A stretch of 64,000 nucleotides of DNA, taken from Escherichia phage vB_EcoM_G2133. The stretch lies in the sequence record MK327928.1; one strand, written 5' to 3'. How positions within the stretch are numbered: the first letter of the stretch is position 1; each line of letters opens with the position of its first letter. This document shows, in pieces, positions 5,873-61,222 of this stretch. Made by a program: the position numbers and the translations under genes. Under the pieces are notes generated by a model. It saw only the letters and a list, made by a program, of their open reading frames with translations, was not told the origin of the DNA and did not search any database.

Positions 5873-6142
5873 TTAATTAAACAGTGGAGCGATACGTTTC
5901 AGAAGAGTAGCAGCACCTTTAGCGAATTTTACATCATGAAAAACAGTTTCTTCTTCTGTAACAACTCGAACTTTAATATTTTCACAATCCCAATTTTTAC
6001 GAACAATCTTCAAAAGCTGCAGTAAATCTTTACATTCAGCAATATCGATAACACATCCACGAGAATCTTCCATTATCGCACGATAACCGTAAGCCATACC
6101 ATAATCGTTGAAAGATTGCTCGATGATAATTAAGTTTTCCAT
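5873..6142 (-). CDS. hypothetical protein (likely start at ATG 6142; track start 6154 is TTG)
   Basis: GGAG 8 nt upstream of ATG; leader shared with ORF 51169..52137. Confidence 0.45.
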   Translation of the reverse strand: MENLIIIEQSFNDYGMAYGYRAIMEDSRGCVIDIAECKDLLQLLKIVRKNWDCENIKVRVVTEEETVFHDVKFAKGAATLLKRIAPLFN

Positions 6143-6166
6143 TTTATTCTCCAAGTTGTTTTCTGT

Positions 6167-6209
6167 ATCAGTAGTTGATATTGATATAGTACCATAATCA
6201 ACTACTGAT
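6167..6209. repeat. perfect 13-bp inverted repeat (atcagtagttgat / atcaactactgat) around a promoter -10-like box
   Basis: arms 6167-6179 and 6197-6209, 17-bp spacer containing tatagtacc. Confidence 0.8.
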
Positions 6210-6239
6210 GTATATAGTTTTATGAAAAAATTTTAAACT

Positions 6240-6728
6240 TTATGCATAGAGAGCATTGCTATAGTGTTTAATCCAACTTTCAGGAATGACTTTGTATGTT
6301 CCTAAAAATACCACGTTGTACAACTTAACGCCATCTTCTACCCATTGATCGGTAATGTATGCACACATAGCGCGAGTATAAACAGCCTTTCCATCATCTT
6401 TGATAAATTTAAATTCGCAAGGAGCAACGAACTTAATAGCTTGACCGAGTTTCCACTTAAAGTCTACACCTACATGCGAAGTATCAATCGTTTCAATTCC
6501 TTTAGCAGGAACAGCTTTCAAAAACGCAGACTCAAGAAATTTCGCACGAACATAGCCAAACTGAGGTTTAGACTTTCCATCTTTAGGAATGATACGCACT
6601 TTTACTTCAGAATCTTCATCTTTAACACCGTGTTTAAGCTGAATGCTTACAATTTCGACCAATTTTCCTGCTGCTTTAGAACGGGATTTATCAGATACAC
6701 GAGCTAATTCACCAATATTAATAATCAT
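6240..6728 (-). CDS. motB: MotB-like protein
   Basis: 162-aa ORF at the T4 motB position; C-terminus paralogous to ORF 6805..7338. Confidence 0.55.
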   Translation of the reverse strand: MIINIGELARVSDKSRSKAAGKLVEIVSIQLKHGVKDEDSEVKVRIIPKDGKSKPQFGYVRAKFLESAFLKAVPAKGIETIDTSHVGVDFKWKLGQAIKFVAPCEFKFIKDDGKAVYTRAMCAYITDQWVEDGVKLYNVVFLGTYKVIPESWIKHYSNALYA

Positions 6729-6772
6729 AGTTATCTCTCACTTGTTAAAAAGATTTTATACTCCGCGGGACC

Positions 6773-6802
6773 ATTATACTCTGGTCCCAAGAGTTTGTAA
6801 AC
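6773..6802 (-). promoter_or_regulatory. T4-type early promoter
   Basis: GTTTAC (6802..6797), 18-bp spacer, TATAAT (6778..6773). Confidence 0.6.
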
Positions 6803-6804
6803 TA

Positions 6805-7338
6805 TTAATTTAAAATAGCTACCACCGCACTACGAGGTACTACGCTAAAATCACCTGCATGAACAACATTCAGAAGTTCAACGCCATCTTCAATCCATTG
6901 GTCTGTTACCCAACCACAGACCGAAATAAATGGAGTCTTGATAGCTACCGCACGAGTCAGAAGGTCAGTAGGATCGCATTCTTGGAAGAGGATGAATTCA
7001 TCTTCATAAACCAGATTTTTCTCTATTTTGTTATTATCTAAACGACGACCGTGGACAATATAAGATTTAGTAAACCATTTACTTTTTTCAAAGTCTTCAA
7101 CAATAAATTCGCCTTCGCCAAAAACATCAGTCAGAATTTTATGGCCGGAAATCAAGGCATTAGTTTTAATTTTAGGTTCAACTAGTTTGTAGGTTTTGCC
7201 GATTTCAATAGCGGTAGTCATAATAGGTTCCTTAATTTCCAGTGGTTTAACAGGGCATACATAAGTACTTACAACATCAAAATCAACCAGTTTAGCTGCA
7301 GGATTTGGTGTGTATTCAGGATTATAATTAAATTTCAT
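6805..7338 (-). CDS. hypothetical protein, MotB paralog
   Basis: 177 aa; C-terminal TDQWIEDGVELLNVV matches motB TDQWVEDGVKLYNVV. Confidence 0.5.
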   Translation of the reverse strand: MKFNYNPEYTPNPAAKLVDFDVVSTYVCPVKPLEIKEPIMTTAIEIGKTYKLVEPKIKTNALISGHKILTDVFGEGEFIVEDFEKSKWFTKSYIVHGRRLDNNKIEKNLVYEDEFILFQECDPTDLLTRAVAIKTPFISVCGWVTDQWIEDGVELLNVVHAGDFSVVPRSAVVAILN

Positions 7339-7340
7339 AA

Positions 7341-7841
7341 TTATCTCATTTCAATAAAATCTACAAGTTCAGCATGGGATTTACGGAACATTACTTGATG
7401 CCCACCAATGATAACTTCATCTTCAGGAACTTCATATATAGCGAGATAAAATCCTTTAGAAGCTAATTCTTCACGCTCTTCTCGTGTGAACCATCTCATC
7501 ATATCATATTCGCTAGCAAAAGCAAAATGATAAAGAGCTATAAACCATCCTGGAATATGATATTCTACTCCAACATAATCTTTCTTGAACTTAGTATTAA
7601 TTACTATATTAGCGTTTTTAACTAATAGTTTATCTTCGTGCGGTAAAGGAATTCTTTTATTATTATCGCTATGATGCATAAAATTAGGTCTGTCATAACC
7701 TACGTGTAATAGCCACTCTTCGCTCCATGAATCTATTATACTCCTGTACGGCGTTATTTGAACACAAAGATTTCGACGTATTGTTATAGCATCTTCATAA
7801 TCAAGAATACTAAACGATGATTCAACACGATAAATTTTCAT
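7341..7841 (-). CDS. hypothetical protein
   Basis: 166-aa ORF. Confidence 0.45.
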   Translation of the reverse strand: MKIYRVESSFSILDYEDAITIRRNLCVQITPYRSIIDSWSEEWLLHVGYDRPNFMHHSDNNKRIPLPHEDKLLVKNANIVINTKFKKDYVGVEYHIPGWFIALYHFAFASEYDMMRWFTREEREELASKGFYLAIYEVPEDEVIIGGHQVMFRKSHAELVDFIEMR

Positions 7842-11820: not shown

Positions 11821-12423
11821 TTATAGATTAAATCCTTCAAAATCAAGAGTATAGATAGTGTATGTTGAATACTTTTTGTACTCATATCTATCTGCAATTC
11901 TAAATACACTTCCAGCTGGTATCATTACTTCTTGTTCATCTGAAACTAATTCCATATTACGATAACGATGGCTATCTGGAAACTTAAAGTTTGGATTGTA
12001 TTCTTTACAGCGTAGAGCTTTTATAGCATACTCCTGGAAATTGAATACCATAGGAGCTTTGAATTCAAAAATAACTTGTGTGTTATATTCTAAACCAGAA
12101 GCAAAATGTAGAGCTATATTTTTATCATATGAAGCTGATACTACTTTATCAAATGTAATAATATCAATTCCTTGATTTAACACCTGCTTAGTCTCAGCTG
12201 GAACACCTCTCCAAAGAGGTTTATCGTTTGGAACCAAACGAGATTTGATTATTTCATTTAACCAAGTATGGTCATCTGGTTTATTAGTAATACAATGAAT
12301 TAAAAGTTCAATTTCAGATAAATTAAACCCTTCAGAAAGTAATTCTTCACGAATAGAAGCACGCACCGATGCATCCATTGATTTTATTTTAAAATCTTTT
12401 AGTTGCATTACCGAGTATTTCAT
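11821..12423 (-). CDS. modA: ModA-like ADP-ribosyltransferase
   Basis: 200 aa, size and position match T4 modA; paralog of the next ORF. Confidence 0.55.
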   Translation of the reverse strand: MKYSVMQLKDFKIKSMDASVRASIREELLSEGFNLSEIELLIHCITNKPDDHTWLNEIIKSRLVPNDKPLWRGVPAETKQVLNQGIDIITFDKVVSASYDKNIALHFASGLEYNTQVIFEFKAPMVFNFQEYAIKALRCKEYNPNFKFPDSHRYRNMELVSDEQEVMIPAGSVFRIADRYEYKKYSTYTIYTLDFEGFNL

Positions 12424-13043
12424 TCAACTACCTCAATATCATAAACTTTAAATGTTCCAAATGAATCGTGTAATTTTTCTTTTGAAATAGAAGTTATTCT
12501 ATACTTTCCAATTGGAATCATCCATTCCTGTTCACGCACAATCATCATTAAGTTATCAGTACGCTCTGAATCTAATCCATCAGTATCTTCATACGTGTAC
12601 TTAAACTCAGTATTAGGAGAAGAAAGTATAATATCGCTGATATGGTCAGAATAATTAAAAGCTTTATTAGTTTTTAAGCGAAGTATTATTTTAGTAAAAT
12701 ATTCAGCGTAAGAAAAAGAACATGCTGTGAGCAAACTAGTAGTAAATGAATCTACTCTATTCGTTGAAAACACTTCTCCAACTTGTAAATCTTTAATAAG
12801 TTCTTCTGTTGATTTTGATATACCACGATATAACTGATATGGTGATTTAGTTAAATGCTTTTTAATGATTTTATTCAATTGCCGATGAAGAGCTTCATTC
12901 TTTTTGGCTTCCATACATTGCCAAAGAACTGACTGCTCAAAGTCAGTAAATTTTTCACAGACCTTTTTATACATATCATATTGAAAATCGACGCTTTCAG
13001 CTTTTATAGATAACTGTTCAACATCTGCAAGATTAATAATCAT
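12420..13043 (-). CDS. modB: ModB-like ADP-ribosyltransferase
   Basis: 207 aa, 4-nt overlap with modA. Confidence 0.55.
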   Translation of the reverse strand: MIINLADVEQLSIKAESVDFQYDMYKKVCEKFTDFEQSVLWQCMEAKKNEALHRQLNKIIKKHLTKSPYQLYRGISKSTEELIKDLQVGEVFSTNRVDSFTTSLLTACSFSYAEYFTKIILRLKTNKAFNYSDHISDIILSSPNTEFKYTYEDTDGLDSERTDNLMMIVREQEWMIPIGKYRITSISKEKLHDSFGTFKVYDIEVVE

Positions 13044-57665: not shown

Positions 57666-58247
57666 CTAACCGAGCTTTTTAGTTAATTCATTCCAATGTT
57701 TTCTACACAAAGAAACATAAATTTCATCACCAATACAGATTTGATTACCTTCTTTAACTGGTGTTCCATCTTCCATTAATCGAGCTGTCATAATCGCTTT
57801 TTTGCCGCAATGACAAACTGCCTTTAGTTCAATAAGTTTATCTGCAATCGCCAAAAGTTCTTTAGAACCTTCAAACAATTTTCCAGCGAAATCAGTCCTT
57901 AGACCATAAGCCATAACAGGAACATTATATGTATCAACAATTCGACTTAATTGATGCACCTGTTCAGTTTTTAAAAACTGAGCTTCATCTACAAATACGC
58001 AATGAATATCTTTTTGTGCTTCAGCCCATTTATAGAACTCAAAAATATCCATATCATCTGTAATAATATTCGCTTCCTGTTTAATTCCAATGCGAGAAAC
58101 GACTTCGCAGACAGAATCGCGAGTATCAATAGCAGGCTTAAGAACTAATACACTCATTCCACGCTCTTTATAATTATGCGCAGCAGTCAAAAGAGAAGCA
58201 GATTTTCCAGCATTCATTGCTGCATAAGTAAAAATTAAACTCGCCAT
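57666..58247 (-). CDS. tk: thymidine kinase
   Basis: 193 aa; P-loop AAMNAGKS; zinc motif CHCGKKA. Confidence 0.8.
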   Translation of the reverse strand: MASLIFTYAAMNAGKSASLLTAAHNYKERGMSVLVLKPAIDTRDSVCEVVSRIGIKQEANIITDDMDIFEFYKWAEAQKDIHCVFVDEAQFLKTEQVHQLSRIVDTYNVPVMAYGLRTDFAGKLFEGSKELLAIADKLIELKAVCHCGKKAIMTARLMEDGTPVKEGNQICIGDEIYVSLCRKHWNELTKKLG

Positions 58248-58256
58248 ATCACCTTC

Positions 58257-58442
58257 TTAAAGCGTATTCACATAAGCTATTAATTCGTTTTCTTTCTTAT
58301 CAAACCGATCAGCAAATTCTTCCTGCTGTTCGGGAGATAACGGGCCGTATTCATCATAAAAGGTGTTTGCTTCTGTATGCTCATCTAGAAGTTCATGGAT
58401 AAGCTCAAACAATTTATCTTTTTGTTCTTTTCTTAGACTCAC
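58257..58442 (-). CDS. hypothetical acidic small protein, GTG start
   Basis: 61-aa ORF with no internal Met; GTG overlaps upstream stop (GTGA). Confidence 0.4.
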   Translation of the reverse strand: MSLRKEQKDKLFELIHELLDEHTEANTFYDEYGPLSPEQQEEFADRFDKKENELIAYVNTL

Positions 58443-58615
58443 AGTATGTCAATCCCCAAAAGTTTTAAAATGACTCGTTTCTGATTCATAACCGCTACGA
58501 TTGAATGACCGTTAGGGTCTTTTTGACCCGATCCAATTATAAATCCTTTTTGTGCAGAAAGTTCAATCAAAACATCAAGTTCACGTAATAATTGATATTT
58601 TAAATCATCATTCAT
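58439..58615 (-). CDS. hypothetical small protein, 58 aa, not in ORF track
   Basis: MNDDLKYQLLRELDVLIELSAQKGFIIGSGQKDPNGHSIVAVMNQKRVILKLLGIDIL; ATGA overlap upstream, GTGA overlap downstream. Confidence 0.4.
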   Translation of the reverse strand: MNDDLKYQLLRELDVLIELSAQKGFIIGSGQKDPNGHSIVAVMNQKRVILKLLGIDIL

Positions 58616-58839
58616 TTTGGTTTGCCTTCTTTAACGAAATCAGGATAAGGATAAAATCCCGAATAAAATCCTTCACCTTTATGATTGATGCATCCTTTAT
58701 TAGAACAATAGCACCAATAATCGAAATCACAAGCCATTTCATCATTACATAAAGCAAAAACAACAGGCCATTTACACTTTTCACAATGGGCATTTTTAAG
58801 AATACTAGTTTGGCTCATAACCATGTAACCTTTAAGCAA
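58612..58839 (-). CDS. Cys-rich small protein
   Basis: 75 aa; CEKCKW...CYCSNKGC. Confidence 0.4.
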   Translation of the reverse strand: MLKGYMVMSQTSILKNAHCEKCKWPVVFALCNDEMACDFDYWCYCSNKGCINHKGEGFYSGFYPYPDFVKEGKPK

Positions 58840-59042
58840 TATTCTTCTACGTGCTGTTTACGACCTTTCTTATCAATAAAGGTATATTCAACGAATGTTC
58901 CAATGTAGTCTTTATCTACATCATGTGGACTATTAATTGGACATTTAGTACGGCAAATGCGTTCCCATTGACGGATAATTACTGCCTTATTCTTTGGGTC
59001 ATACGGATGTGGATAATGTATATTCATAATAATGGTTCCCAA
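58815..59042 (-). CDS. hypothetical small protein
   Basis: 75-aa ORF. Confidence 0.4.
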   Translation of the reverse strand: MGTIIMNIHYPHPYDPKNKAVIIRQWERICRTKCPINSPHDVDKDYIGTFVEYTFIDKKGRKQHVEEYCLKVTWL

Positions 59043-59491
59043 TCAACAATCACAATTTCTAATTTAGAAGAATATGTATCTAAAATCCCCTCAATAATAT
59101 CCCAGTTCCCTTTACCTATGCCTGCACCAATCCTAGGCATATAGATTGTAGGTTTAATCAGTTTATTTTCACCAAACTCATTTAATTCTAACATACAATT
59201 CATTAAAGCGGAATACTCAAAATTTGGCCCTGGTTGAAATTGAGTATAAAGGTTGAAGCAATACGCTTTATGAGTCCTAAAGTATTTTTCATAGACTGAG
59301 TAAGAACCGAGTTTAGTTACATCACCCCATTCAGTCTGTAATTTATCAGCTTCCAAAATTTTAGGGAAAGCTTTGGTTAATTGACCTGCGACTCCAGCTT
59401 TCATCGTGTGAAAACAATTACATCCATGCGCAATATTTTTACCTTCAGCGAAAAGGGCGACAATATCGCCCTTAATATATTTTACAATCAT
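59024..59491 (-). CDS. macro-domain-like protein (tentative ADP-ribose binding or hydrolysis)
   Basis: 155 aa; IVALFAEGKNIAHGCNCFHTMKAGVAGQ resembles the macrodomain N-x-x-N / G-x-G core. Confidence 0.4.
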   Translation of the reverse strand: MIVKYIKGDIVALFAEGKNIAHGCNCFHTMKAGVAGQLTKAFPKILEADKLQTEWGDVTKLGSYSVYEKYFRTHKAYCFNLYTQFQPGPNFEYSALMNCMLELNEFGENKLIKPTIYMPRIGAGIGKGNWDIIEGILDTYSSKLEIVIVDWEPLL

Positions 59492-59835
59492 CTAGTACTC
59501 AATCCTCGATTATAAGAATCTACCAAACGGTCAACCATTGAATGACAAGCGGCTTTATCTTTCTCCTCCGCAACTGAGCATTCTAAGGTATTCCACTTTT
59601 TAGCATATCGTTTTAACAATGTATCGTTTTTGTATCTGCTTGATTTATCTCTTTCTCCGTCTTTATATGCATATATTAATTTCTGCGCAAATTCAGCTTG
59701 GCATGCTTTATTTTTCCCACAATAATCTGCCGCAGTGCGGTTTACATATTCTCTAATTTCAGTATATGATGTATCTGCTGACGCAGAAGCAGAAAATGAA
59801 ATTAATCCTATACATAAAACCAAAATTTTAGTCAT
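59488..59835 (-). CDS. secreted small protein (Vs-like by size and position)
   Basis: 115 aa with signal peptide MTKILVLCIGLISFSASASA. Confidence 0.4.
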   Translation of the reverse strand: MTKILVLCIGLISFSASASADTSYTEIREYVNRTAADYCGKNKACQAEFAQKLIYAYKDGERDKSSRYKNDTLLKRYAKKWNTLECSVAEEKDKAACHSMVDRLVDSYNRGLSTR

Positions 59836-60373
59836 TTACTATTTCCAAAAGTTTATTATTTTTAAGGTAGTTAGCCTTTTCTAGGACTTCAGAAGCATAT
59901 TTAGAACCTGCTTTAACATTCCATCCCGAATTATAAGAGGATATTGCTTTTCTTATATCACCCTTATGTATATTTAACCAATAAGAAAGTTCAATGTACG
60001 CCCAGGAAGCTGAATTGGATCGTTTATTCAACATTCTTTTTATTTCAGCATCGGTCATATTATAACCAAGTTCCTTAACTCTCGCTCGCATAGTAGGCAA
60101 ATAATTTTGGAACATTCCGTAGGCGTGATGCTTTGGTTTAGATTTTAAATTAACTCCGCCAGAGCTTTCTTGCCATAAAATAGCAGCCATTATATGACCT
60201 AATCCGCTCTTGTGGATATTTTTGTGTGTTTTATATTTTCCATCCTTAGAAAATTGTTCCCCGAATTGATACGCGTAACGCATGTTATCGAGTTGGACAT
60301 TACTGAAAGTATGCTCGGAGCTATGTGCCATCATTGAAATGGCCAATAGACCAGCGAGTAGTGCTTTTCTCAT
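59828..60373 (-). CDS. periplasmic lytic-transglycosylase-like protein
   Basis: 181 aa; signal peptide; LWQESSGG ... GMFQ ... SYNSGWN. Confidence 0.45.
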   Translation of the reverse strand: MRKALLAGLLAISMMAHSSEHTFSNVQLDNMRYAYQFGEQFSKDGKYKTHKNIHKSGLGHIMAAILWQESSGGVNLKSKPKHHAYGMFQNYLPTMRARVKELGYNMTDAEIKRMLNKRSNSASWAYIELSYWLNIHKGDIRKAISSYNSGWNVKAGSKYASEVLEKANYLKNNKLLEIVND

Positions 60374-60380
60374 GCTTACC

Positions 60381-60842
60381 TCATTGAGTTTTAATTACTG
60401 CTTTAGAAGCCTTTCCTGGTAAACGACGACTGTTGATAATTGCCATCCTACATTGAAGTGACGGGTCTTTGAACTTCGCGTTAGGTTTACAAACTGTAAA
60501 TCCAAGCCAAAGATTTCCATCTGTGATTTCTAAACGTCCAGGACGATATTCAACCCCATCAATAAAATCCTCGTCAATGTCAGGACGCGGAGGCATACTC
60601 AGGAATTCATTAACTTCTAAAACATGGTCTTTTATTTTATGGAATAATTCAAAAACGTATGTCTCATCAATCTCCCGTTGAATTGCGCGATCAAGAAGAT
60701 GCTGAGAATATTTTAGATGAAACGATGAGACTCCTGCTGCTTTTGATGCCTCACGAATCTCATTGTTAATTTGACGAAACTCCGACTCAAAGTGACGACG
60801 AAGCTTATTTCGACGGATAAAAACTTCTGTATTGATAGTCAT
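60381..60842 (-). CDS. regB: endoribonuclease RegB
   Basis: 153 aa; MTINTEVFIRRNKLRRHFESEF. Confidence 0.7.
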   Translation of the reverse strand: MTINTEVFIRRNKLRRHFESEFRQINNEIREASKAAGVSSFHLKYSQHLLDRAIQREIDETYVFELFHKIKDHVLEVNEFLSMPPRPDIDEDFIDGVEYRPGRLEITDGNLWLGFTVCKPNAKFKDPSLQCRMAIINSRRLPGKASKAVIKTQ

Positions 60843-60869
60843 GTTATTCTCCTCTTAACTGATAGAAAA

Positions 60870-60899
60870 ATTATACCACAGTCAAGAGGAAAAGTAAAC
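60870..60899 (-). promoter_or_regulatory. T4-type early promoter for regB
   Basis: GTTTAC (60899..60894), 18-bp spacer, gtggTATAAT. Confidence 0.6.
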
Positions 60900-60901
60900 A
60901 G

Positions 60902-61222
60902 TTATTCTTTAAATCTGATCAATTTATTCATAGACTTTGAAACTTCTGCACGAACCTCATGTAAGTTTTTAAGCTGTTCAAGACGCTGTTCATAGTAAGC
61001 AATTTCATCTTCTTCGAGACAGTCCTGTGAATCTTCTTTAAGATAGCGTGCATAGTCCTGGAAAGCTTTACGGACTACTTCCTGGAAGTCATCAAGACTT
61101 TGAATTTTCTTAGGAGCAACAGATACACGACGAGGGGCAGTATAATACTCATAACCAAACCCTGCGCTTAATTGAGCCATTAGTATTTTTCCTCTGGTTG
61201 GAACACTGCGCGACAAGCCCAC
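60902..61222 (-). CDS. hypothetical protein
   Basis: 106-aa ORF. Confidence 0.45.

What the first reader, a model, noticed from the sequence alone, without database searches (positions are those of the whole stretch)
59024..59491. Candidate macro-domain protein
The 155-aa ORF has an N-terminal IVALFAEGKNIAHGCNCFHTMKAGVAGQ segment resembling the ADP-ribose-binding core of macrodomains. In a genome that also encodes ADP-ribosyltransferase-like proteins, a macrodomain could reverse host or phage ADP-ribosylation. The assignment is from motif resemblance only.
Basis: inference. Interest (0 to 1): 0.45.

Follow-up and report, generated by a model that had tools for sequence, protein, structure and literature searches.

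The report
T4 tk.4 macrodomain (AdfM) anti-DarT2 gene

Summary
The 155-aa ORF at 59024..59491 (-) exists exactly as described and is a macrodomain. It passes Pfam's Macro cutoff. Its AlphaFold2 model (pLDDT 93) matches TARG1, Poa1p, BT1257 and DarG macrodomain structures.

The window is a Tequatrovirus. The ORF is the ortholog of T4 tk.4 (153/155 identical) and sits in the conserved order regB-vs.1-vs-tk.4-tk.3-tk. GenBank and RefSeq already call it "macro domain protein" or "phosphatase".

A 2025 preprint (HIDEN-SEQ) found tk.4 to be the only T4 gene conditionally needed on a DarTG2 host. A clean knockout sensitised T4, and the authors renamed the gene adfM. The likely mechanism, inferred and not assayed for Tk.4, is hydrolysis of ADP-ribose that DarT2 places on thymidines of phage DNA.

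What this work adds: the family carries an invariant Gln (Q84, 120/120 homologs) where DarG and TARG1 have their catalytic Lys. SCO6735, a proven thymidine-ADPr DNA hydrolase, also has Gln there. So Tk.4 is not a DarG-type enzyme in detail. It is also only remotely related to the Lys-type PhiKZ protein that is likewise named AdfM.

Reversal of the phage's own Alt/ModA/ModB modifications is unlikely.

Verdict: correct call, already known, low interest.

The parts
59024..59491 (-). tk.4 / adfM coding sequence, 155 aa, a single macrodomain
   Evidence: ORF. Pfam Macro. AF2 model and Foldseek. 98.7% identical to T4 Tk.4, NP_049723.
59381..59464 (-). It holds the HGCNC strand end with the conserved Asn25 and the M-x-x-G33-V-A35 loop, which aligns with the GKG loop of DarG and SCO6735 and with the MGAG loop of TARG1.
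   Evidence: Translation. N25 is conserved in 119/120 homologs, G33 and A35 in 120/120. N25 aligns with SCO6735 Asn27 and the DarG Asn. The N27S mutant of SCO6735 is nearly dead (PMC9411070).
59240..59254 (-). N80-L-Y-T-Q84 motif. Q84 occupies the position of the catalytic Lys80 of DarG, Lys84 of TARG1 and Gln85 of SCO6735.
   Evidence: hmmalign and HMM alignments. Q84 and Y82 are in 120/120 homologs, N80 in 119/120. SCO6735 Q85A and Q85E are inactive (PMC9411070).
59102..59137 (-). P119-R-I-G-A-G124-I-G-K-G-N-W130, the second conserved macrodomain loop. It aligns with PRIGCGLAGG(K/T)W of BT1257/SCO6735 and PRIGCGLDRLQW of TARG1.
   Evidence: G124 aligns with SCO6735 Gly128, whose G128E mutant has reduced activity. 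G126 sits where TARG1 has Asp125.
59488..59491 (-). ATGA overlap of the vs stop codon with the tk.4 start codon (translational coupling is inferred)
   Evidence: Sequence read directly. The predicted mRNA stem pairs the SD/AUG region.
59024..59027 (-). ATGA overlap of the tk.4 stop codon with the tk.3 start codon
   Evidence: The same 4-nt overlap is annotated in phages ADUt and T4.
60870..60898 (-). Early-promoter-like site (GTTTACT, 17 nt, TGgTATAAT) upstream of regB. It is the nearest promoter-like site from which the regB-vs.1-vs-tk.4 block could be transcribed (inferred).
   Evidence: Scan, sequence. No terminator-like site lies on the minus strand between it and tk.4, and no MotA-box pattern lies on the minus strand between 59400 and 61000.

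Best explanation
The ORF is the tk.4 gene (recently renamed adfM, 'anti-DarT factor macrodomain') of a T4-like Tequatrovirus. It encodes a stand-alone macrodomain of the ALC1/TARG1/DarG-like class, probably made early in infection as part of the tightly packed regB-vs.1-vs-tk.4-tk.3...tk gene block. Its most likely job is counter-defence. When a host DarTG2 toxin-antitoxin system is triggered, DarT2 ADP-ribosylates thymidines in TNTC motifs of single-stranded phage DNA and blocks replication. Tk.4 acts as an orphan antitoxin-like glycohydrolase: it binds the ADP-ribose and cleaves the N-glycosidic bond to thymine, restoring the DNA. Shown here: macrodomain identity, orthology to T4 Tk.4, and conservation of the active-site positions. 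Shown in the literature for T4: the genetic requirement on a DarTG2 host. Inferred: the enzymatic step and its chemistry. The chemistry is likely the SCO6735 type, in which Gln84 is positioned by Asn25 and orients the distal ribose for attack by water. It is unlikely to be the Lys-dependent chemistry of DarG and TARG1, because the family has an invariant Gln at that position.
For: Macrodomain: Pfam above its cutoff. PDB sequence hits are all macrodomains. The AF2 model has pLDDT 93, and its top Foldseek hits are TARG1, Poa1p, BT1257 and DarG. The PADLOC DarG model hits at 1.1e-7 over its macrodomain part. Orthology: 153/155 residues identical to T4 Tk.4 with the same neighbours; the window is 98% identical in DNA to Tequatroviruses. 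Function: tk.4 was the single significant hit of a T4 transposon library on a DarTG2 host, and a clean knockout was sensitised (bioRxiv 10.1101/2025.11.20.689424). Plausibility of the chemistry: N25, Q84 and G124 are 119-120/120 conserved and align with SCO6735 N27, Q85 and G128. Mutations at these SCO6735 positions abolish or reduce cleavage of thymidine-linked ADP-ribose on DNA (PMC9411070). A different phage macrodomain, PhiKZ gp104, removes DarT2 marks from DNA in vitro (PMC13309987). Targets are abundant: 2418 TNTC sites in the 64-kb window, both strands. The gene matches the window in GC content (0.344 vs 0.343), and homologs occur in 2733 phage records.
Against: No biochemical assay of T4 Tk.4 or of this protein was found in the searched library. 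The T4 evidence is genetic and comes from a preprint. The protein lacks the catalytic Lys of DarG/TARG1. It also lacks the longer 'mobile loop' of SCO6735/BT1257: 8 residues against 13-14. So the mechanism cannot simply be copied from either. The window's protein differs from T4's at G31K and S32A inside the loop after Asn25. Position 31 is Gly in 103/120 homologs, though Lys, Ala and others also occur. Early expression is inferred from a consensus promoter match only, and promoter-like sites in the region are no more frequent than in shuffles (19 vs 18.7).
Confidence: 0.8

Rival explanations
1. Tk.4 reverses the phage's own protein ADP-ribosylation by Alt, ModA or ModB, making those modifications dynamic.
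For: ORFs matching ModA and ModB in size and position lie in the same window at 11821..13043 (-).
Against: From my own knowledge, not tested or looked up here: Alt, ModA and ModB modify arginine, and Arg-ADP-ribose is removed by ARH/DraG-fold enzymes, not macrodomains. The activities described in the papers read here for relatives of this class are on thymine/uracil-linked and on protein-linked ADP-ribose, with Glu/Asp named for TARG1. In the T4 screen, tk.4 was conditionally needed only on the DarTG2 host. Homologs occur in many phage groups, including Felixounavirus-size, Ackermannviridae-size and Pseudomonas phages; I did not check whether these carry mod genes.
Confidence: 0.04
2. Tk.4 is a small-molecule enzyme: an ADP-ribose-1''-phosphate phosphatase like yeast Poa1p (the RefSeq name 'phosphatase') or an O-acetyl-ADP-ribose deacetylase. 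It would clear NAD-derived metabolites rather than repair DNA.
For: RefSeq and PHROG 335 call it 'phosphatase', and JGI calls homologs 'O-acetyl-ADP-ribose deacetylase'. Poa1p is among the best sequence and fold matches. It shares H-x-C-N-C, and Asp49 aligns with an Asp of Poa1p.
Against: These names are transferred from the generic macrodomain, not tested. Poa1p has Ser where the family has invariant Gln84, and Phe152 where the family has Gly/Ala126. Such an activity would not by itself explain the DarTG2-specific phenotype. Many macrodomains show these activities in vitro as side reactions (my own knowledge, not checked here).
Confidence: 0.08
3. Tk.4 has a broader substrate range than DNA. 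It would also remove uracil-linked ADP-ribose from RNA and/or Glu/Asp-linked ADP-ribose from proteins, countering further host ADP-ribosyltransferase defences in addition to DarT2. This extends the best explanation rather than excluding it.
For: The Gln-type relative SCO6735 acts on thymidine-ADPr DNA, on proteins and on uracil-ADPr RNA, and is more active than DarG on the RNA substrate (PMC9411070; PMC13036486). Tk.4 shares the N/Q/G triad.
Against: No bacterial U-ADPr RNA defence was described in the papers I read. CmdT modifies adenine, a mark described as irreversible, and CmdTAC still defends against T-even phages (abstract). Only DarTG2 gave a tk.4 signal among the defence systems tested.
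Confidence: 0.25
4. Tk.4 is a non-catalytic ADP-ribose binder (reader or sponge). It would shield modified DNA or sequester a signalling nucleotide, since it lacks the catalytic Lys.
For: The Lys80/Lys84 equivalent is Gln, and the TARG1 Asp125 equivalent is Gly.
Against: SCO6735 has the same Gln and is a fast hydrolase that depends on it. Invariance of Q84, N25, Y82 and D49 across 120 homologs looks like an active site. From my own knowledge, stoichiometric shielding of thousands of TNTC sites seems implausible.
Confidence: 0.04

Closest known systems
Bacteriophage T4 Tk.4 = AdfM (NP_049723; HIDEN-SEQ preprint, bioRxiv 10.1101/2025.11.20.689424)
   Same: Same length, 153/155 identical residues, and the same position between vs and tk.3 with the same 4-nt overlaps. 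This is the same gene in a sister phage.
   Different: Two substitutions, G31K and S32A, inside a small patch of clustered nucleotide differences at 59384..59407. The K31 form is common in nature: cluster P0001 has 122 member sequences.
Streptomyces coelicolor SCO6735 (PDB 5E3B) and Bacteroides BT1257 (2FG1/2AFC): Gln-type ALC1-like macrodomains
   Same: BT1257 is the best PDB sequence match (1.8e-17). Both have Gln at the catalytic-Lys position plus the Asn and Gly shown to matter in SCO6735. SCO6735 cleaves thymidine-linked ADP-ribose on DNA and rescues DarT toxicity.
   Different: Identity is only about 24% (BT1257). Tk.4 lacks their 5-6-residue-longer, Lys-bearing mobile loop (8 vs 13-14 residues). 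It has its own invariant residues C24, C26, D49, Y82 and T83. It is phage-borne rather than chromosomal.
DarG antitoxin macrodomain (M. tuberculosis 5M3I, T. aquaticus 5M31/5M3E; NCBIfam NF048014)
   Same: Same fold (Foldseek 3e-8 to 3e-7). It shares the Asn, the N-x-x-T motif before the catalytic position, and the short loop. It has the same biological opponent, DarT2.
   Different: There is no C-terminal DarT-binding domain: 155 aa covers positions 2-146 of a 338-position model and scores 25 bits against a cutoff of 250. Gln replaces the catalytic Lys80. There is no adjacent darT.
PhiKZ gp104, also named AdfM (Cell Rep 2026, PMC13309987)
   Same: A stand-alone phage macrodomain that counters DarTG2. 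The paper shows in vitro removal of DarT2 marks from DNA, and mutation of its conserved Asn (N23A) reduces activity.
   Different: The relationship is remote: hhalign probability 95.7%, E 8.9e-9. gp104 matches DarG directly (9e-25) and keeps the FPTK Lys. It is imported into the phage nucleus. The two 'AdfM' proteins were named independently and are likely separate acquisitions (inference).
Human TARG1/OARD1 (4J5R/4J5S)
   Same: It is the top structural match (E 2e-10, TM 0.75-0.83). According to the papers read here, it can remove thymine- and uracil-linked ADP-ribose.
   Different: The Lys84/Asp125 dyad is replaced by Gln84/Gly126. Identity is about 21%.

Membership tests
Macro domain (Pfam PF01661) | Score at or above the curated gathering cutoff of the family HMM | tested here: met
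   25 bits against a cutoff of 22, E=1.9e-5, profile positions 2-113 of 118. Many homologs carry the same precomputed Pfam hit.
Macro domain (Pfam PF01661) | Mixed alpha/beta macrodomain fold | tested here: met
   AF2 pLDDT 93.3 with seven strands and five helices. All 16 top Foldseek PDB hits are macrodomains, with TM 0.72-0.83.
Macro domain (Pfam PF01661) | Conserved Asn after strand 2, followed by a Gly-rich loop, plus a second P-x-I-G-x-G loop lining the ADP-ribose cleft | tested here: met
   N25, G33, A35, P119, I121, G122 and G124 are conserved in 119-120 of 120 homologs. They align to the corresponding residues of BT1257, SCO6735, TARG1 and DarG.
Macro domain (Pfam PF01661) | Binds ADP-ribose | not testable with these tools
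   This needs ITC, DSF or a co-crystal.
T4 Tk.4 / AdfM orthologous group | Near-identity to T4 Tk.4 and the conserved vs-tk.4-tk.3 gene order | tested here: met
   98.7% identity over 155 aa. The same order is seen in the window, T4 and ADUt.
T4 Tk.4 / AdfM orthologous group | Required for growth on a DarTG2-expressing host | not testable with these tools
   Published for T4 only: transposon screen plus clean knockout.
DarG antitoxin (NCBIfam NF048014 equivalog) | Full-length two-domain protein (macrodomain plus C-terminal DarT-binding domain) scoring above the cutoff | tested here: not met
   25.1 bits against a cutoff of 250; the match covers only profile positions 2-146 of 338. PADLOC DarG matches positions 2-145 of 329.
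DarG antitoxin (NCBIfam NF048014 equivalog) | Catalytic Lys (Lys80) in the F-P-T-K motif | tested here: not met
   Gln84 aligns with Lys80 and is Gln in 120/120 homologs.
DarG antitoxin (NCBIfam NF048014 equivalog) | Encoded next to a darT toxin gene | tested here: not met
   The neighbours are vs and tk.3. Two distant homologs also sit among T4-like phage genes with no DarT.
SCO6735/BT1257 subclass of ALC1-like macrodomains | Gln at the DarG/TARG1 catalytic-Lys position, supported by the conserved Asn and the loop Gly | tested here: met
   Q84, N25 and G124 align with SCO6735 Q85, N27 and G128. The functional importance of those residues is from PMC9411070.
SCO6735/BT1257 subclass of ALC1-like macrodomains | Mobile loop about five residues longer than in DarG/TARG1, stated as characteristic of the subclass in PMC9411070 | tested here: not met
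   There are 8 residues between Q84 and Y93 in Tk.4 and in 87/120 homologs (11 residues in 27/120). BT1257 has 14 and SCO6735 has 13; DarG and TARG1 have 8.
TARG1-type glycohydrolase | Lys84/Asp125 catalytic dyad | tested here: not met
   Gln84 and Gly126 occupy these positions. The TARG1 sequence used was verified against PDB chains.
Poa1p-type ADP-ribose-1''-phosphate phosphatase | Residues probed in the Poa1p structures (His23, Ser30, Phe152) | tested here: inconclusive
   By the HMM alignment, His23 aligns with H22 (conserved), Ser30 with T29, and Phe152 with G126 (Ala or Gly in the family). The mutant names come from the PDB titles. The Poa1p structure paper was not in the library, so the role of these residues is unknown to me.

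The most novel reading that the evidence does not exclude
The Tk.4 family may be a third, phage-specific active-site design within the ALC1/TARG1/DarG-like macrodomains. It has the Gln of SCO6735 at the catalytic position but the short loop of DarG/TARG1, plus its own invariant Cys24, Cys26, Asp49 and Tyr82. If so, T4-type AdfM was not simply copied from a DarG antitoxin. It would have arisen independently of the Lys-type PhiKZ AdfM, and it may have a wider substrate range, such as uracil-ADPr RNA or protein Glu/Asp-ADPr, and therefore counter more than DarT2.
Probability: 0.4. Interest if true: 0.35.

Novelty: already known. Interest (0 to 1): 0.15.

Why it matters
This gene adds a second orphan-antitoxin-like enzyme to the T-even phages. 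AdfN (gene 30.3, a NADAR protein) removes guanine-linked ADP-ribose placed by DarT1. Tk.4/AdfM is needed against thymidine-modifying DarT2. That point has already been published for T4. The only useful addition here is the active-site observation: an invariant Gln where DarG has Lys. It tells anyone designing catalytic-dead controls or inhibitors to mutate Q84 and N25, not a lysine. It also shows that the name 'AdfM' currently covers two distantly related proteins.

Tried and rejected
1. I asked whether Tk.4 is a true DarG. It is not: it has no C-terminal domain, no Lys and no darT neighbour.

2. I asked whether the 'bacterial' homologs (Bacilli and Culicoidibacterales MAGs) reveal a cellular origin or a DarT partner. 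Both contigs are T4-like phage DNA carrying Rnl1, a Dda-like helicase, Pnkp and dCMP deaminase, so they say nothing about a cellular source.

3. hhalign of the family against PhiKZ gp104 placed the motif two residues out of register in the low-confidence middle. I relied on hmmalign and the HMMER alignments to DarG, TARG1 and SCO6735 instead. hmmalign likewise misplaces gp104 itself; its FPTK motif is read from its direct alignment to DarG.

4. A MotA-box (middle promoter) pattern search found none upstream of tk.4 on the coding strand.

5. The Poa1p structure paper was not available, so the 'phosphatase' rival could not be judged residue by residue.

6. NCBIfam gave no hit for the ModA and ModB ORFs. 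Their identity rests on size and position relative to the annotation of the closest relative.

7. One row of the DNA alignment (ADUt) used wrong coordinates and should be ignored.

Full report
**1. The observation**

The ORF listing returns a 155-aa ATG-initiated ORF at 59024..59491 on the minus strand. The quoted motif is residues 10-37, window 59381..59464. The ORF is packed between two other minus-strand ORFs. Its ATG overlaps the stop codon of the upstream 115-aa ORF as ATGA (59488..59491). Its own stop overlaps the ATG of a downstream 70-aa ORF as ATGA (59024..59027).

**2. Is it a macrodomain?**

Yes, by every independent line of evidence:
- Pfam Macro (PF01661) matches at E=1.9e-5 and 25 bits, above the curated 22-bit cutoff, over almost the whole profile.
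- phmmer against PDB sequences returns only macrodomains: BT1257 (2e-8), Poa1p, TARG1/OARD1, SCO6735 and the DarG macrodomains.
- A profile built from 35 diverse homologs (alignment A1) raises these to 1.8e-17 (BT1257), 1e-14 (Poa1p), 1.1e-13 (SCO6735), 1.9e-13 (TARG1), and 5e-13 and 1.1e-10 (DarG of M. tuberculosis and T. aquaticus).
- An AlphaFold2 model from A1 is confident (pLDDT 93.3, pTM 0.89). Foldseek against the PDB ranks TARG1, Poa1p, BT1257 and DarG macrodomains first, at E of 2e-10 to 3e-7 and TM of 0.72-0.83.
- PADLOC's DarG model hits at 1.1e-7. NCBIfam's DarG equivalog hits at 9.7e-6. Both cover only the N-terminal macrodomain part of those two-domain models.

**3. What gene is it?**

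The window is a Tequatrovirus. Bases 58000-61000 are 98% identical to phages vB_EcoM_G4498 and AR1. The ORF is tk.4. In T4 (NC_000866) the order is regB, vs.1, vs, tk.4, tk.3, tk.2, tk.1, tk, and the window shows the same order.

The protein is 153/155 identical to T4 Tk.4; the differences are G31K and S32A. Public records already call it 'macro domain protein', 'macro domain-containing protein' or 'phosphatase'. The T4 RefSeq note says 'contains A1pp phosphatase motif'. PHROG 335, 'phosphatase', matches at 1.4e-64.

tblastn finds homologs in 2733 of 50,697 phage records, spanning many genera. The gene's GC content equals that of the window.

**4. What is already published**

The HIDEN-SEQ preprint (bioRxiv 10.1101/2025.11.20.689424, November 2025) infected a DarTG2-expressing E. 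coli with a T4 transposon library. tk.4 was the single significant hit. A clean knockout sensitised T4 to DarTG2. The gene was renamed adfM, on the basis of AlphaFold similarity to the M. tuberculosis DarG macrodomain. The authors state only that enzymatic removal of ADP-ribose from DNA 'seems likely'; there is no biochemistry.

Independently, a Cell Reports 2026 paper (PMC13309987) gave the same name, AdfM, to PhiKZ gp104. That paper shows in vitro removal of DarT2 marks on the second T of TNTC, and reduced activity of an N23A mutant. It does not mention Tk.4.

The companion T4 factor against DarTG1 is the NADAR protein AdfN, gene 30.3.

**5. Anatomy of the active site (the part I could add)**

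Across the 120 homologs listed by the database search, hmmalign to the A1 profile gives these conservation counts:

| Residue | Conserved in |
|---|---|
| Q84, Y82, G33, A35 | 120/120 |
| N25, N80, D49, G23, C26, P119, I121, G122, G124 | 119/120 |
| T83 | 117/120 |
| W130 | 116/120 |
| H22 | 115/120 |
| C24 | 114/120 |

The alignments place these residues against known active sites:
- The HMMER alignments to BT1257 and SCO6735, and an hmmalign that also includes DarG and TARG1 (the TARG1 sequence was verified), place Q84 at the position of DarG Lys80, TARG1 Lys84 and SCO6735 Gln85.
- N25 aligns with SCO6735 Asn27 and the DarG Asn.
- G124 aligns with SCO6735 Gly128.
- G126 aligns with TARG1 Asp125.

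SCO6735 is an efficient hydrolase of thymidine-linked ADP-ribose on DNA and rescues DarT toxicity. Its Q85A and Q85E mutants are dead, N27S is nearly dead, and G128E is impaired. The authors propose a water-mediated mechanism in which Gln85 positions the distal ribose (PMC9411070).

Tk.4 therefore has the Gln-type site, not the Lys-type site of DarG. However, it lacks the 5-6-residue-longer mobile loop that the same paper calls characteristic of the SCO6735/BT1257 subclass. Tk.4 has 8 residues there, against 13-14 in that subclass and 8 in DarG and TARG1.

PhiKZ gp104, by contrast, matches DarG directly (9e-25) and keeps F-P-T-K. It is only remotely similar to the Tk.4 family (hhalign 95.7%, E 8.9e-9). 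The two 'AdfM' proteins are therefore different members of the same broad class.

**6. Mechanism**

Shown:
- macrodomain identity;
- orthology to T4 Tk.4;
- conservation of the SCO6735-critical triad;
- absence of a DarT-binding domain and of a darT neighbour.

From the literature:
- T4 needs tk.4 only on a DarTG2 host;
- DarT2 modifies thymidine in TNTC motifs of ssDNA;
- relatives of both the Lys type and the Gln type cleave this mark.

Inferred:
- Tk.4 hydrolyses thymine-linked ADP-ribose on phage DNA. The window alone has 2418 TNTC sites on its two strands.
- It does so with Gln84/Asn25-assisted water attack.
- It is made early. The nearest good promoter-like site upstream on the coding strand is GTTTACT-17-TGgTATAAT in front of regB (60870..60898). 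No terminator-like site on that strand lies before tk.4, and no MotA-box pattern lies upstream of it.
- The ATGA overlaps, and a predicted stem that pairs the SD/AUG region (z = -2.6), suggest translational coupling to vs.

**7. Rivals**

- **Reversal of the phage's own Alt/ModA/ModB marks.** ORFs matching ModA and ModB lie at 11821..13043. This is unlikely. From my own knowledge, not checked here, those marks are Arg-linked and this enzyme class is not known to act on that linkage. The T4 screen also gave a phenotype only with DarTG2.
- **Small-molecule 'phosphatase' or deacetylase roles.** These are transferred names. Poa1p differs at the Gln84 and Gly126 positions.
- **A purely binding role.** This is contradicted by the SCO6735 precedent.
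- **A broader substrate range, such as uracil-ADPr RNA or proteins.** This is compatible with the SCO6735 data and remains open as an extension.

**8. Novelty and score**

I rate it 'already known' and of low interest. The residual open points are the lack of any enzymology for the Tk.4-type protein, its hybrid active-site design, and the naming collision with PhiKZ AdfM.

Noticed in passing
window 59384..59407 (-), tk.4 codons 29-36: Both amino-acid differences from T4 Tk.4 (G31K, S32A) lie in a short patch with several clustered nucleotide differences (ACG ATG AAA GCT GGA GTC GCA vs ACT ATG GGT TCA GGC GTA GCG), while the flanks are almost identical. This looks like a small mosaic or recombination patch in the loop after Asn25. 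Position 31 is Gly in 103/120 homologs but Lys in 5. The K31 form is common: cluster P0001 has 122 member sequences.
   Followed up: partly
window 59453..59473 (tk.4 codons 7-13) and 59489..59529: A perfect palindrome, AAGGGCGAUAUUGUCGCCCUU, forms a 9-bp hairpin 18 nt into the tk.4 mRNA and is conserved in T4. On the + strand the same sequence scores as a terminator-like site (stem plus T-run), which could stop antisense transcription. A second predicted stem pairs the tk.4 SD/AUG with the 3' end of vs (MFE -25.4 kcal/mol, z = -2.6).
   Followed up: partly
literature (PMC13309987 vs bioRxiv 10.1101/2025.11.20.689424): Two groups independently named different proteins AdfM: T4 Tk.4 (Gln at the catalytic position) and PhiKZ gp104 (DarG-like FPTK Lys, imported into the phage nucleus). 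They are only remotely related (hhalign E 8.9e-9), so annotation transfer between them should be done with care.
   Followed up: yes
L004 (GCA_051648945.1 contig) and L005 (GCA_051660865.1 contig): Homologs labelled as proteins of bacterial MAGs (Bacilli, Culicoidibacterales) sit on 41-44 kb contigs full of T4-like phage genes: Rnl1, a Dda-like helicase, Pnkp, dCMP deaminase, DNA ligase and a T4 spanin. These contigs are phage DNA binned into MAGs.
   Followed up: yes
window 11821..12423 (-) and 12420..13043 (-): Two adjacent ORFs of 200 and 207 aa have the sizes and order of the two genes annotated 'RNA polymerase ADP-ribosylase' (ModA/ModB) in the closest relative, vB_EcoM_G4498. There the genes lie about 275 bp lower, so part of this region of the window differs in length from that phage. 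NCBIfam has no model that hits either ORF.
   Followed up: partly
window 60842..60898 (-): A T4 early-promoter-like sequence (GTTTACT, 17 nt, TGgTATAAT) is followed by a GAGGAG Shine-Dalgarno and the regB start. The SD contains GGAG, the motif that the T4 RefSeq note gives as the RegB cleavage site. This fits RegB autoregulation, which I recall from my own knowledge and did not check.
   Followed up: no
whole window: The MotA-box-like pattern TGCTTNA-N11-13-TANNNT occurs 19 times against 4.9 +/- 2.1 expected, mostly on the minus strand between 30 and 44 kb near replication genes. This is as expected for T4 middle promoters.
   Followed up: no
L001 (phage ADUt, OQ466432.1) 5903..7360: Several small ORFs next to regB in this GenBank record carry implausible product names, such as 'tail tube protein' for a 73-aa ORF and 'endoribonuclease' for vs.3-like ORFs. 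These look like automated annotation errors.
   Followed up: no
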